NCBI RefSeq assembly: GCF_009914755.1
Contig: NC_060926.1
Source: the human T2T-CHM13v2.0 reference genome, Homo sapiens
Length of the DNA: 64,000 nt
Direction: 5' to 3' (one strand)
Shown here: in pieces, positions 1 to 4,670 of the stretch
Numbering within the stretch: position 1 is the first letter of the stretch
Layout of the letters: the number at the start of each line of letters is the position of its first letter
The notes under the pieces: model-generated
The model's input: only the letters and a program-made list of their open reading frames with translations
Told to the model about the DNA's origin: nothing
Database searches by the model: none
Program-made: the position numbers and the translations under genes

Positions 1-684
1 TTCAACCTTGGTGAATCTGACAATTATGTATCTTGGGGTTGCTCTTCTCGAGGAGTATCTTTGTGGTGTTCTCTGTATTTCCTGAATTTGAATGTTGGCC
101 TGCATTGCTAGGTTGGGGAAGTTCTCCTGGATAATATCGTGAAGAGTGTTTTCCAGCTTGGTTCCATTCTCCCCGTCACTTTCAGGTACACCAATCAAAT
201 GTAGATTTGGTCTTTTCACATACTTCCATATTGCTTGGAGGCTTTGTTCATTTCTTTTTACTCTTTTTTCTCTAAACTTCTCTTCTTGCTTTATTTCATT
301 AATTTGATCTTCAATCACTGATACCCTTTCTTCCACTTGATCAAATCGGCTATTGAAGCTTGTGCATGCCTCATGTAGTTCTCATGCGATGGTTTTCAGC
401 TCCATCAGGTCATTTAAGGTCTTCTCTACACTGTTTATTCTAGTTAGCCATTCTTCTAATCTTTTCTCAAGGTTTTTAGCTTGTTTGCGATGGGTTCGAA
501 CATCTTCCTTTACTTCAGAGAAGTTTGTTATTACTGACCTTCTGAAACATACTTCTGTAAACTCGTCAAAGTCATTCTCTGTCCAGCTTTGTTCTGTTGC
601 TGGCGATGAGCTGCGATCCTTTGGAGGAGAAGAGGCGGTCTGGTTTTTAGAATTTTCTGCTTTTCTGCTCTGGTTTCTCCCTAT
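1..684 (-). pseudogene. L1 ORF1 N-terminal part, start codon mutated
   Basis: Minus strand reads ATAGGGAGAAACCAGAGCAGAAAAGCAGAAAATTCT from 684; L1PA ORF1 starts ATGGGGAGAAACCAG, so ATG has become ATA. Confidence 0.85.
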
Positions 685-1259
685 CTTTGTGGTTTTATCT
701 ACCTTTGGTCTTTGATGTTGGTGACTTACACGTGGGGTTTTGGTGTGGATGTCCTTTTTGTTGATGTTGATGCTATTCCTTTCTGTTTGTTAGTTAGTTT
801 TCCTTCTAACAGTCAGGTCCCTCAGCTGTAGGTCTGTTGGAGTTTGCTGGAGGTCCACTCCAGACGCTGTTTGCCTGGGTATCACCAGCAGAGGCTGCAG
901 AACAGCAAATATTGCTGCCTGATCCTTCCTCTGGAAGCTTTATCTCAGAGGGGCACCTGGCTGTATTAGGTGTCAGTTGGCCCCTACTGGGAGATGTCTC
1001 CCAGTTAAGCTACATGGGACCCACTTGAGGAGGCAGTCTATCCATTCTCAGAGCTCAAACACCATGCTGGGAGAACCACTGCTCTCTTCAGAGCTGTCAG
1101 GGACATTTAAGTCTGTAGAAGTTTCTGCTGCCTTTTGTTCAGCTATGCCCTGCCCCCAGAGGTGGAGTCTACAGAGGCAGACAGGCCTTATTGAGATGAG
1201 GTGGGCTCCACCCAGTTTGAGCTTCCAGGCTGCTGTGTTTTCCTACTCAAGCCTCAGCA

Positions 1260-1586
1260 ATGGCAGACGCCCCTTCCCCAGCCAGGCTGCTGCCTCGCAG
1301 CTGGATCTCAGACTGCTGCGCTAGCAGTGAGCAAGGCTCTGTTGGCATGGGATTTGCTGAGCCAGGCATGGGATATAATCTCCTGGTCTGCCGTTTGCTA
1401 AGACCATTGGAAAAGTGCATTATTTGGGTGGCAGTGTCCCGATTTTCCTGCCATAGTCTGTCACGGCTTCCTTTGGCTAGGAAAGGGACATCCCCCAACC
1501 CCTGTGCTTCCCGGGTAAGGCGATGCCCCACCCTGCTTTGGCTCGCCCTCTGTGGCCTGCACCCACTGTCCAACCAGTCCCAATGA
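1260..1586 (+). CDS. ORF0: L1 antisense ORF0 homologue, open and extended to 108 aa (translation unproven)
   Basis: MADAPSPARLLPRSWISDCCASSEQGSVGMGFAEPGMGYNLLVCR aligns with L1HS ORF0 (MAGAPPPASLPPCSLISDCCASNQRDSVGVGPSEPGVGYSLVVRR, from memory). ATG is in a strong Kozak context (gcaATGG). Confidence 0.6.
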   Translation: MADAPSPARLLPRSWISDCCASSEQGSVGMGFAEPGMGYNLLVCRLLRPLEKCIIWVAVSRFSCHSLSRLPLARKGTSPNPCASRVRRCPTLLWLALCGLHPLSNQSQ

Positions 1587-1687
1587 GATGAACCCGGTAC
1601 CTCAGTGGGAAATGCAGAAATCACTCATCTTCTCTGTCAATCATGCTGGGAACTGCAGACGGGAGCTGTTCCTATTTGGCCATCTTG

Positions 1688-1793
1688 AAAAATATGGAAT
1701 GCTTCATGAATTTGCATGTCATCCTTGCACAGGGTCTTGCTGGTCTTCTCTGTATTGTTCCAGTTTTAGTATATGTGCTGCCGTAGTGAGCAC
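1688..1793 (-). pseudogene. RNU6: Full-length U6 snRNA retrocopy fused to the L1 5' end (U6/L1 chimera)
   Basis: Minus strand GTGCTCACTACGGCAGCACATATACTAAAACTGGAACAATACAGAGAAGACC...AAGGATGACATGCAAATTCATGAAGCATTCCATATTTTT matches U6 over 106 nt. About half the differences are CpG transitions. It ends in 5 T with no poly(A). Confidence 0.97.
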
Positions 1794-1809
1794 CATAAAA
1801 ATTTTATAT

Positions 1810-2760
1810 TTGGTAAGGCAAATAAACTCACAGATATGATGAAAAGGCAAGTCATAGTCTCGAAATGTATTTATAATACATATAAGGAATTAATTTTCTT
1901 AATATTATTATGTATTAATTAATATGTATGGGATATATAACGAATTAATTTCCTTAATATTTAAGTGAATCTTATAGGTTAATGAGAAATGACAGCCCCA
2001 GTAGCAAGAATGAACTAATAATCATAAGGGATAATATTAATAATCATAAGGGATAATATTCATTGTCATTAGTGATTAAATAAATGCTAATTTAACAAAA
2101 TCATATTAAGGCTTTGAGATTATAAAAGAAAAATATATTGTGTTAATAAAGGTATGGTGAAAAGATAATTTCATATACTGAAACAATAATGGTTGAATTT
2201 TATTTAATAAGTTCTATGTGTCAGATCCCATTTTACATTTTATGTATATTTTCACATTTAATCTTCAGAACAACAATAAAATTTGATATTTTACCTATTT
2301 TTCATATGTGGATACTAAGAAGAATTCAAGAACTTGCCCAGTGCCTTCAACCAGATGAGGGTGAGCTAAGATTTCGACCTACAGGCTACTAAGAGGCCAT
2401 GGTCTTACTCATCACTTGAAAGCTACTTTCACTTATGGAAAAATATCAATTGATAATGCCTTTCTAAGAGATAATTTGGCAAAAAATCAATTTAATTACA
2501 AAAGTTGTTATACTTTTACCCACAAATTCTTCTTTTAGGAATATAATAATGTGAGAAAAATACAAAATTATATGTGCAGAAATATTGTTATAATATGGAG
2601 CATAGTGAGAAGATAATGCAAATATGAAAGAATTAGGAAATGGCAGTGTAAATTTAAAGAACAGCTATAGTGGAATATTATGTAGATATTAAAAATGATG
2701 TTGAAACATATTTAATGGTCAGAGATACACACTTTGAGTTCAAGAAGCATGGTACAAGCA
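1810..2760 (+). mobile_element. Ancient L1M(E) 3' fragments, interrupted by a MIR
   Basis: Degenerate A-rich L1 ORF2-end/3' UTR-like sequence (e.g. TATAGTGGAATATTATGTAGATATTAAAAATGATG). Confidence 0.5.
2185..2415 (-). mobile_element. MIR SINE
   Basis: CATTTAATCTTCAGAACAAC...AACTTGCCCAGTG MIR core in reverse orientation. Confidence 0.65.
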
Positions 2761-3240
2761 GTTCCTGTATTCAAATTGCTGCCAAGTCCGATTACAAGCC
2801 CTTTTGATGGTAATGATCTTCTTATTACTAACATTCATAGAGCTCTTTATGAATGTTACTGAGCATTTATAAACAAAAATGTATTTTCATTGCCATGGAC
2901 TTTATATTCTAGTGGAAGAGACTGACAATAAGAACAAAATGGAAAATATACAGCACACTATAAGGACTAAAGAGAAAAACATAAAGCATATGCAACATTG
3001 GTAAGGGCAACTAAAATTTACAGAGAATGACCAGGGGCTCACAAAAGAATCAACTCATAAAACAGAGATCATAAAAAAGTCAACTTTTTACCAAACACCA
3101 TAGATCACCAGAGGAAATTGAATTACAGAGTCAGGGAATAATTTTTCAGAGTTCTGACACCGAGTTAGAACAAAAGGTAGAACACAGGCACTCTGATTTT
3201 CATATGTTACAAATGGAAACTTCAAAAGAATACCATCTAA

Positions 3241-3693
<453 letters not shown>

Positions 3694-4289
3694 ATTTATT
3701 AGACATTTTTTGAATGGATTTCAAGGCACACTAAATCTGACTCACATCTTTGGCTTCTGCTGTAGTTGCTGTACTCCAGCTCCATACTTTATTTTTTATA
3801 ATAACTTTATATCCTATGTATGAAGTCTCCAGAGTGGCTTCTTCTGTGGACTGCCTGTACAATGACACCACTATGACTAAAGCCACTGGATTTCTCCTTT
3901 CTATACTCTGTACTTTTCATGTGCCATGTTGAATAAATGGCCGAATCTAATAGACTTTTACTTTCATCATTTTCTCACATATGCCCTCTGTTTTCCATTG
4001 TCATGACCATGGTATGTTTAGGCTTTAAATTTCTCTCTCTCTCTTTTCCTGAGATAGGCACCACACCAATCTCCCTATTCTCTCACAATTTATCCAGAAA
4101 GCCATCTTCAGACCTTCTGGTTAACAGCTAGATTATCACCAAACCCAATCAGATCATCCTCCTAATCTTGTTCATTCAATCTCACCCTAGTTCCTAGGGT
4201 TAGTGTAAATTCTACATCCTGACAGTCACTACTGGAAGTGGCTGACATTTTCCATCTTATCTTTTACTCTCCATTGTATATGTTTCATA

Positions 4290-4670
4290 GCCCAGCCATG
4301 AAAGAGATAACAATGCTTACCAAATAATCTCCTTTCTCCCACTTTATGCAGCTTCTTGCCATTGAGCTGGCCATATGGCTAGTTCTGGTTAATTGGCTGT
4401 TAGCAGAAAGAACATACGTCATTTCTGTGCCTGAGCCTAGAAGAACAGGTGTGAGTTCTCCATGCTTCTTTATTCTCTTCCTGAAGCAACAAGGAAAGTT
4501 GCACATTTAAATCCTGCAGCTACAAAGTAGTGGAATCTGAGACCTCATTGATCTAGTGTGTGAGCAAAAAATAAACATTTGATGTGTGTTGGTGTGTTGG
4601 TGTGTTGTGCTGCTGGGATTTTGAAGTGAATCTGTTACTACACATAACTTAGCCTCTTTAAACTAGTACA
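4290..4670 (+). mobile_element. MLT1-family MaLR LTR
   Basis: GGCCATATGGCTAGTTCTGGTTAAT...AATAAACATTTG...TGTTACTACACATAACTTAGCC...TACA. Confidence 0.6.

What the first reader, a model, noticed from the sequence alone, without database searches (positions are those of the whole stretch)
1640..1815. U6 snRNA fused to a nearly full-length L1 5' end (atypical U6/L1 chimera)
Seen: on the minus strand a complete U6 (1793-1688) ends in exactly five T and runs with no spacer or poly(A) into CAAGATGGCC, which is only about 10 nt short of the L1 start and keeps the YY1 core. Known: U6/L1 chimeras are a described class, attributed to RtcB ligation of the 2',3'-cyclic-phosphate U6 end to a 5'-OH L1 RNA or to RT template switching, but the L1 part is usually heavily 5'-truncated. 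Inference: U6 joined an essentially complete (decapped or 5'-trimmed) L1 RNA, so at insertion this may have been a promoter-bearing, potentially competent L1 capped by U6.
Basis: partly seen in the sequence, partly recalled or inferred. Interest (0 to 1): 0.8.

Follow-up and report, generated by a model that had tools for sequence, protein, structure and literature searches.

The report
U6 fused to near-complete L1
An old, dead copy of the U6 spliceosomal RNA is joined head-to-tail to an almost complete L1 retrotransposon as one insertion event; it is a real and unusually long example of a known class of chimera, and it is already listed in a published catalogue.

Summary
A complete U6 (Rfam 91.2 bits, window 1793-1688, minus strand) ends in five T. 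It runs without a spacer into CAAGATGGCC, the start of an L1. In the 29 closest L1 5' ends of the same genome, an 11-nt leader precedes that motif, so the L1 lacks only about 11 nt.

Upstream sequence shows the L1 runs about 6.2 kb to a degenerate A-rich tail. A 13-of-14 target-site duplication flanks U6 and L1 together. This was therefore a single retrotransposition event.

The locus is already a row in the 2026 Cell Genomics catalogue of 180 U6/LINE-1 chimeras: L1PA6, flagged as inserted contemporaneously by multi-species alignment. By my hand sums it has the longest L1 of the 180 rows.

The element is now dead. ORF1 has lost its ATG and has two stops, ORF2 is fragmented, and a mitochondrial COX1 piece replaces part of the reverse transcriptase. 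I found no progeny or second copy of the junction.

Sequence alone cannot tell whether the join was made by RNA ligation (about 0.5) or by template switching (about 0.35). Interest is low to moderate.

The parts
1794..1807 (-). 5' copy of the target-site duplication (ATAAAATTTTTATG on the minus strand), directly before U6 nucleotide 1. The 3' copy (ATAAAAATTTTATG) lies outside the window at L002 4472-4485, which is window -4528 to -4515. It sits directly after the L1 A-rich tail and is followed by unrelated flank (TTATCAAATC).
   Evidence: The two copies match 13 of 14. That score is reached by 21 of 20000 shuffles and by 5 of 20000 random window 14-mers.
1688..1793 (-). Complete U6 snRNA retrocopy (RNU6-439P), 106 nt, ending in five T
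   Evidence: Rfam RF00026, 91.2 bits, model 1-105 of 105. It has 13 differences, including 6 CpG transitions and 1 deletion, over 107 aligned positions against six identical top-scoring genomic U6 copies.
1678..1697 (-). U6/L1 junction CCATATTTTT|CAAGATGGCC, with no spacer, no A-run and no untemplated bases. The L1 side carries the CAAGATGGCC motif (YY1-site identity is recalled).
   Evidence: Read directly. It is unique in the window and in the genome.
685..1687 (-). L1 (L1PA6 by the published RepeatMasker-based table) 5' UTR, 1003 nt, lacking only about the first 11 nt
   Evidence: Positions 1-995/1000 are colinear with 29 of 29 relatives at 80-87% identity. The family name comes from the table read.
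1..684 (-). Start of L1 ORF1, with initiator ATA instead of ATG at 684-682. The element runs on beyond the window edge to L002 4486 (window -4514): the ORF1 end, ORF2 in many pieces, the 3' UTR and a 13-nt degenerate A-rich tail. L1 plus tail is 6202 bp in all. Also outside the window: a 28-base A-run at L002 8436-8463 (window -564 to -537), and a 281-bp mitochondrial COX1 fragment at L002 6524-6804 (window -2476 to -2196) that replaces about 155 bp of the RT region.
   Evidence: 10 of 13 relatives matched by the motif carry ATG here, and the ORF1 frame has 2 internal stops. Pfam finds the L1 ORF1 domains and the two RVT_1 halves. Sequence. Colinear with three long relatives. ORF fragments. 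COX1 is PF00115, E 1.4e-30, under the mitochondrial code. Tail.

Best explanation
This is one L1-mediated (target-primed reverse transcription) insertion of a two-part template, made roughly in the L1PA6 era. The template was a mature U6 snRNA with five terminal U, joined in sense orientation to an essentially full-length L1 RNA that had lost its cap and about its first 11 nt.

Shown:
- The U6 is complete.
- The join is direct.
- The L1 is nearly complete.
- One target-site duplication flanks both parts.
- The copy is now dead and has left no detectable offspring.

Inferred: I favour (about 0.5) that the join was made at the RNA level before reverse transcription. In that route an endonuclease cut close to the L1 5' end leaves a 5'-OH. 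The RNA ligase RtcB then joins it to the 2',3'-cyclic-phosphate end of U6. The ORF2 protein already bound in cis to the L1 poly(A) copies the whole 6.3-kb chimera. On this reading the locus is the extreme long tail of the ordinary U6/L1 pathway, not a different kind of element.

The retrocopied U6 brings no promoter of its own (recalled: human U6 promoters lie upstream of the gene). The L1 5' UTR was carried in almost whole. Whether it ever fired cannot be told.
For: Single event:
- A 13-of-14 target-site duplication abuts U6 nt 1 on one side and the L1 tail on the other.
- There is no A-run or duplication between U6 and L1.
- The published table flags the pair as found_by_msa_prediction = 1, that is, contemporaneous in a multi-species alignment.

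Near-complete L1:
-.

Age agreement between the parts:
- U6 differs at 13 of 107 positions, 6 of them CpG transitions.
- The L1 is 80-92% identical to its relatives.

Ligation route:
- Passages of PMC6789731 report that RtcB joins U6 ending in a cyclic phosphate to 5'-OH L1 RNA in vitro and in nuclear extracts, independently of L1 reverse transcriptase.
- The same passages say mature human U6 typically ends in 5 U, and that genomic chimeras have 5-7 T and 6-19-bp duplications.
- The join here is exact, with five T and no untemplated bases.
- The L1 lacks its capped end, as a ligase that needs a 5'-OH requires.
- PMC13174262 states that L1 parts of U6 chimeras are more often 5'-truncated than genomic L1 overall. 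In its table only 1 of 180 rows is near full length. That pattern argues against run-off template jumping as the general route.
- By contrast, the 5 mRNA/L1 chimeras in the 6 rows I read of that paper's Table S5 whose L1 is long keep their L1 5' ends. Three of those 5 carry untemplated bases at the join.
Against: - Under random cutting, a cut within 12 nt of the end of a 6-kb RNA is improbable. Among the 180 rows this is the only junction I can place in the 5' UTR, and it sits at nt 12 of about 1000. That is roughly a 1-in-80 chance if the position within the UTR were uniform (a post hoc estimate). It hints at a process tied to the RNA end.
- No nuclease that leaves a 5'-OH there is known to me.
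- The L1 leader ends in TT(C) beside the U6 T-run. The break point is therefore ambiguous, and a short U/A pairing that would help a template switch cannot be excluded.
- Nothing in the DNA records whether the join was made in RNA or during cDNA synthesis.
Confidence: 0.5

Rival explanations
1. The insertion was the same single event, but the join was made during reverse transcription. ORF2p copied the L1 RNA to, or nearly to, its 5' end. That RNA was perhaps already shortened by about 11 nt, or was left uncopied at the cap-bound end. ORF2p then switched template onto the 3' end of a U6 snRNA held in the L1 particle and copied it to nt 1.
For: - The junction lies 12 nt from the end of the RNA, where a polymerase runs out of template. 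It is the only one of 180 catalogued junctions that I can place in the 5' UTR.
- Template switching is the classical model for these chimeras (PMC4476161, section 6), and PMC13174262 still lists it as an alternative.
- The L1 leader ends in TT(C) next to the U6 U-run. One or two A at the cDNA end could therefore pair with the U6 tail.
- U6 is reported as enriched in L1 particles (Taylor 2013, as cited).
Against: - A run-off from a capped full-length RNA should keep nt 1-11, but they are absent.
- There are no untemplated bases at the join.
- If end-jumping onto U6 were common, near-full-length U6 chimeras should be as frequent as full-length L1 insertions. Only 1 of 180 is, and the paper reports more truncation than in genomic L1.
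- I read no direct experimental demonstration of this route for U6/L1. The older papers were not held.
Confidence: 0.35
2. The chimera originally had a different junction, for example a complete L1 5' end or a few extra bases after U6. A small later deletion removed about 11 nt of L1 leader.
For: The element has suffered other small deletions and replacements since insertion: an A-run and gaps in the endonuclease region, and the COX1 piece.
Against: The deletion would have to end exactly at a U6 T-run of normal length (five T) and leave no scar. One specific 11-nt loss at this spot is a small target.
Confidence: 0.05
3. There were two independent events. Either a U6 retrocopy landed exactly at the 5' edge of an existing L1, or an L1 landed beside an existing U6 pseudogene.
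For: Nested and adjacent insertions are common in this genome.
Against: - The target-site duplication encloses both parts, and neither part has a duplication of its own.
- U6 has no A-tail and is not 3'-truncated.
- The published multi-species flag says the two parts are contemporaneous.
- The same orientation and zero spacer would be a coincidence.
Confidence: 0.02
4. The locus is a daughter of an earlier U6-L1 'master' element that was transcribed and retrotransposed as a unit.
For: The L1 part carried nearly the whole 5' UTR, so a parent of this form might have been active.
Against: - No second copy of the junction exists in the assembly at up to 3 mismatches in 29-31 nt.
- The 9 loci I read have no U6 upstream.
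- Transcription from the L1 internal promoter would not start at U6 nt 1. A retrocopied U6 also lacks its upstream promoter (recalled).
Confidence: 0.03

Closest known systems
U6/LINE-1 chimeric pseudogenes (Buzdin 2002/2003 and Garcia-Perez 2007, recalled or cited only; Doucet 2015 PMC4476161; Moldovan 2019 PMC6789731; Cell Genomics 2026 PMC13174262)
   Same: A full-length U6 lies in sense orientation 5' of L1. A short T-run is joined directly to L1. One target-site duplication surrounds both parts, and there is an A-rich 3' end. This very locus is a row of the 2026 catalogue (hg38 chr2:49227587-49233793, L1PA6).
   Different: The L1 part is normally strongly 5'-truncated. Here only about 11 nt are missing and the whole 5' UTR and both ORFs were carried in. 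By my hand sums of the table's fragments it has 6170 bp of annotated L1, against 5118 bp for the next of the 180 rows. The 5'-most junction among the 38 chimeric RNAs cloned from transfected HeLa cells in PMC6789731 was at L1.3 nt 4387.
mRNA first-exon/LINE-1 chimeras ('5' transductions') with near-full-length L1 (PMC13174262, Table S5)
   Same: A foreign RNA is joined in sense to the extreme 5' end of a near-full-length L1 inside one target-site duplication.
   Different: Those partners are Pol II first exons, often ending at splice donors. In 5 of the 6 rows I read the L1 is long and keeps its natural start (one of the 5 has an internally deleted 5' UTR). Three of those 5 have untemplated bases at the join. 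Here the partner is a complete Pol III snRNA, the L1 start is missing, and the join is clean.
Ordinary full-length L1PA6-type insertion
   Same: The 5' UTR, ORF1, ORF2, 3' UTR, tail and duplication are the same, with similar decay.
   Different: The 11-nt leader is replaced by 106 nt of U6.
LINE-1 5' UTR self-cleaving (twister-sister-like) ribozyme of L1PA6-10
   Same: It would give a 5'-OH L1 RNA, the substrate RtcB needs, and it belongs to L1 families of this age.
   Different: It lies 650-750 nt upstream of ORF1, which is about 250-350 nt from the 5' end here, not at nt 12. The L1PA7 and younger consensus forms were inactive. No such Rfam match was found in window 1-4000. I rejected it as the source of this break.

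Membership tests
U6/LINE-1 chimeric pseudogene | Full-length U6 copy in sense orientation immediately 5' of an L1 | tested here: met
   Rfam U6 model 1-105 of 105 on the minus strand at 1793-1688, with the L1 on the same strand from 1687.
U6/LINE-1 chimeric pseudogene | U6 ends in a short T-run (about 4-8) joined directly to L1 sequence, without its own A-tail | tested here: met
   Five T, then CAAGATGGCC. The published range was read.
U6/LINE-1 chimeric pseudogene | One target-site duplication flanking U6 plus L1 as a unit | tested here: met
   13 of 14 match, abutting both ends. Controls reach this in 21 of 20000 and 5 of 20000 trials.
U6/LINE-1 chimeric pseudogene | L1 3' end with poly(A), and insertion at an L1 endonuclease-like site (TT/AAAA) | tested here: inconclusive
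   The tail is a 13-nt degenerate A-rich stretch. Because tail and duplication are both A-rich, the nick can be read as AT/AAAA or otherwise. This is compatible with the feature but not decisive.
U6/LINE-1 chimeric pseudogene | U6 and L1 present or absent together in other species | not testable with these tools
   No other primate genome is held. The published table gives found_by_msa_prediction = 1 for this row.
U6/LINE-1 chimeric pseudogene | L1 part variably (usually heavily) 5'-truncated | tested here: not met
   Only about 11 nt are missing. This is a usual property rather than a strict requirement, and it is the atypical point of this locus.
Retrotransposition-competent L1 | Intact ORF1 and ORF2 | tested here: not met
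   ORF1 has ATG changed to ATA plus 2 internal stops. ORF2 is split into many open pieces, the longest 508 aa, and COX1 sequence replaces part of the RT domain. The state at the time of insertion is not testable.
Retrotransposition-competent L1 | Evidence of offspring | tested here: not met
   No other copy of the junction in the assembly. Offspring that started inside the L1 would not carry the junction and would be missed.
Functional U6 gene | Sequence identical or nearly identical to the expressed U6 genes, with an upstream type-3 Pol III promoter | tested here: not met
   13 differences over 107 aligned positions against six identical best genomic copies. The sequence upstream is the insertion target, not a U6 gene flank. 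I did not search for promoter elements as such. RefSeq calls it a pseudogene.

The most novel reading that the evidence does not exclude
The junction sits only 12 nt from the L1 RNA end, and I can place no other of the 180 catalogued junctions in the 5' UTR. The locus may therefore be a natural fossil of a second, end-linked route. In that route L1 ORF2p ran to the end of a full-length L1 RNA that had lost its first ~11 nt and jumped onto U6, alongside the RtcB ligation route that makes the bulk of chimeras. It would then also show that a small-RNA/complete-L1 composite with a nearly whole promoter can be made. Such an event could seed new 5' ends for L1.
Probability: 0.35. Interest if true: 0.4.

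Novelty: already known. Interest (0 to 1): 0.2.

Why it matters
The class (U6/L1 chimeras) and this locus are both in print, so the find adds no new kind of element.

Its modest value is as an outlier. By annotated L1 content it is the only one of 180 catalogued chimeras that keeps the L1 5' UTR, and its break is 12 nt from the RNA end.

That single data point bears on an open question: whether all U6/L1 chimeras come from RtcB ligation of cut L1 RNA, or whether some come from template jumping at the RNA end. It also gives a concrete junction to look for in long-read retrotransposition assays. One locus cannot settle the question.

Tried and rejected
1. L1 5' UTR self-cleaving ribozyme as the source of a 5'-OH at the junction. 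It lies 650-750 nt upstream of ORF1, not at nt 12, and was reported inactive in L1PA7 and younger consensus forms. Rfam found nothing of the kind in window 1-4000. Rejected.

2. Progeny or duplicates. Whole-genome pattern searches for the junction gave only the locus itself. A looser 31-nt pattern gave 42 other hits, whose matched strings are ordinary L1 leaders. I read 9 of those 42 loci and none has U6 upstream.

3. A DNA search with U6 plus 128 nt of L1 scored 40 of 3782 candidates. Only the locus itself covered both parts. This is a lower bound, not a census.

4. A 7-nt identity (CGTTCCA) between the majority L1 leader and U6 nt 93-99 looked like a possible recombination homology. A join through it would delete the U6 TATTTTT end, which is present. 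Treated as coincidence.

5. Older primary papers (Buzdin 2003, Gilbert 2005, Garcia-Perez 2007) could not be read. Whether they list a near-full-length U6/L1 chimera is unknown to me.

7. An orthologue comparison was not possible, because no other primate genome is held.

Full report
**What is there**

On the minus strand, window 1793-1688 is a complete U6 snRNA copy. Rfam RF00026 matches model positions 1-105 of 105 at 91.2 bits against a gathering score of 44, with E 2.7e-23. It ends CCATATTTTT. The very next base begins CAAGATGGCCAAATAGGAACAGC, which is L1 5' UTR sequence. No spacer, A-run or extra bases lie between them. The 20-base junction occurs once in the window, with 0 expected in 100 shuffles, and once in the 3.1-Gb assembly.

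**How much of the L1 start is missing**

A DNA search of the window's own genome with U6 plus 128 nt of L1 returned 40 scored matches out of 3782 candidates. Only the locus itself covered both parts.

In the 29 other loci I could read, CAAGATGGCC is preceded by a conserved leader of about 11 nt:
- The majority bases are GGGGTCCGTTC.
- Position -1 is C in 25 of 29, -2 is T in 28 of 29, and -3 is T in 26 of 29.
- Positions beyond -11 look like unrelated flank.

These 29 are the best BLAST matches, so they are not a random sample of L1 5' ends. The leader ends in TTC and U6 ends in five T, so the true break could lie up to about 3 nt further 5' in L1 if one substitution is allowed.

**The rest of the element**

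I fetched 9 kb upstream of the window (L002; window position = L002 position - 9000). The L1 continues on the minus strand to L002 4499 (…AGTATAATAAA), followed by a 13-nt degenerate A-rich tail. L1 plus tail is 6202 bp.

- It is colinear with three long relatives across the 5' UTR, ORF1, ORF2 and 3' UTR, apart from one 281-bp stretch.
- The first 1000 nt align end to end with 29 of 29 relatives at 80-87% identity.
- Pfam finds the three L1 ORF1 domains and the two halves of the reverse-transcriptase domain in the expected order.

**One event or two**

The 14 nt just before U6 read ATAAAATTTTTATG (window 1807-1794). They recur as ATAAAAATTTTATG directly after the A-rich tail (L002 4485-4472), followed by unrelated flank. 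The match is 13 of 14. That score is reached by 21 of 20000 shuffles of the downstream flank and by 5 of 20000 random 14-mers from the window.

Neither U6 nor the L1 has a duplication of its own.

**It is already catalogued**

Supplementary Table 2 of PMC13174262 (Cell Genomics 2026; I read all five parts of the file) has this row: chr2:49227587-49233793:-, L1PA6, U6 at chr2:49233794-49233899:-, U6:1-107, found by proximity = 1, found_by_msa_prediction = 1.

The lengths and the break at the A-run match the T2T sequence with an offset of 4106 bases. The legend defines the last flag as a contemporaneous insertion inferred from a multi-species alignment. That flag supplies the orthologue test I could not run.

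**How atypical it is**

I counted 180 U6 rows (6 + 59 + 57 + 58) and summed the annotated L1 fragments by hand.
- This locus has 6170 bp, of which 281 bp is the COX1 piece.
- The next rows have 5118, 5016, 4912, 4865, 4845, 4838 and 4805 bp.
- Twelve rows span 5 kb or more, but only this one has more than 5.2 kb of annotated L1.

The caveat is that the table gives no consensus coordinates. Old families have poorly annotated 5' ends, so another long junction could be hidden.

The paper's text says the L1 parts of U6 chimeras are more often truncated than genomic L1 (passages). In the passages I saw, it does not single out this locus. In PMC6789731 the 5'-most junction among 38 chimeric RNAs from transfected cells was at L1.3 nt 4387.

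**Age and state**

The U6 part differs from six identical top-scoring genomic U6 copies at 13 of 107 aligned positions. Six of these are CpG transitions and one is a deletion. This is in keeping with an L1PA6-era insertion. The date of roughly 27 million years for L1PA6 is recalled, not tested.

The element is dead:
- The ORF1 initiator is ATA, where 10 of 13 relatives matched at that motif have ATG, and the frame holds two internal stops.
- ORF2 is in many pieces.
- A 28-base A-run replaces part of the endonuclease region.
- A COX1 fragment replaces about 155 bp of the RT domain.

**Offspring**

No other copy of the junction exists at up to 3 mismatches in 29 nt, nor with a gap-tolerant pattern. 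A 31-nt pattern at up to 3 mismatches gave 42 other hits whose strings are ordinary leaders. The 9 I read have no U6 upstream. Offspring that began inside the L1 would not be recognisable.

**Mechanism**

Both published routes fit the anatomy.

*For RNA ligation:*
- Passages of PMC6789731 report that RtcB joins U6 with a cyclic phosphate to 5'-OH L1 RNA, independently of L1 RT, and that mature U6 typically ends in five U.
- The join here is exact.
- The capped end is gone.
- Near-full-length chimeras are very rare (1 of 180), which would not be expected if run-off jumping were common.
- In the part of Table S5 that I read (1 of 3 parts, 6 rows), 5 mRNA/L1 chimeras have a long L1 that keeps its natural start. 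Three of the 5 have untemplated bases at the join. That looks different from this clean, shortened join.

*For template switching:*
- The break lies 12 nt from the RNA end.
- It is the only catalogued junction I can place in the roughly 1000-nt 5' UTR. That is about a 1-in-80 chance under a uniform position, a post hoc figure.
- The TT(C) of the leader beside the U-tail could give a short pairing.

I put ligation at about 0.5, template switching at about 0.35, and the remainder on a later small deletion, two events, or a copied master element.

I considered the L1 5' UTR ribozyme as a source of a 5'-OH and rejected it on position.

'A promoter-bearing L1 at insertion' is true in the sense that 1003 nt of 5' UTR, including the CAAGATGGCC motif, were carried in. 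'Potentially competent' is plausible from cis-preference (stated) but untestable here. Nothing suggests the element ever moved again.

**Verdict**

This is a real, single-event and atypically long U6/L1PA6 chimera. It belongs to a known class and is already listed in print. It is worth a line as the extreme of the length distribution and as a test case for the two join models.

Noticed in passing
L002 6524-6804 (window -2476 to -2196), minus strand: A 281-bp mitochondrial COX1 fragment (Pfam PF00115, E 1.4e-30 under the mitochondrial code) sits inside L1 ORF2 in the same orientation. It replaces about 155 bp of the RT domain. It looks like a numt captured at a break, or less likely part of the original template. 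The published table does not split the L1 fragment there.
   Followed up: partly
L002 8436-8463 (window -564 to -537), and about L002 8540: A 28-base A-run stands where relatives have endonuclease-domain sequence, and a short deletion lies nearby. The published L1 fragment break falls at this run.
   Followed up: no
window 1009-1687: This stretch is not among the masked repeats listed by the hub, yet it is L1 5' UTR, colinear with 29 of 29 relatives. The mask under-reports the repeat here.
   Followed up: yes
L1 leader of relatives (loci L005-L033, positions -6 to +2 relative to CAAG) and U6 nt 93-99: The majority L1PA6/7-type leader and the U6 3' region share the 7-mer CGTTCCA. The join at this locus did not use it, because the U6 TATTTTT end is kept. 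Probably coincidence.
   Followed up: partly
window 3409-3692, minus strand: Sub-threshold Rfam matches to SRP RNA, mir-1268 and mir-3135 are consistent with an ordinary Alu element.
   Followed up: no
window about 1880-1965 and 2010-2060, minus strand: Short AT-rich direct repeats lie just upstream of the insertion site (for example ...attaattc.ttatat... twice, and ...tattatcccttatgattatta... twice). They were seen by eye.
   Followed up: no
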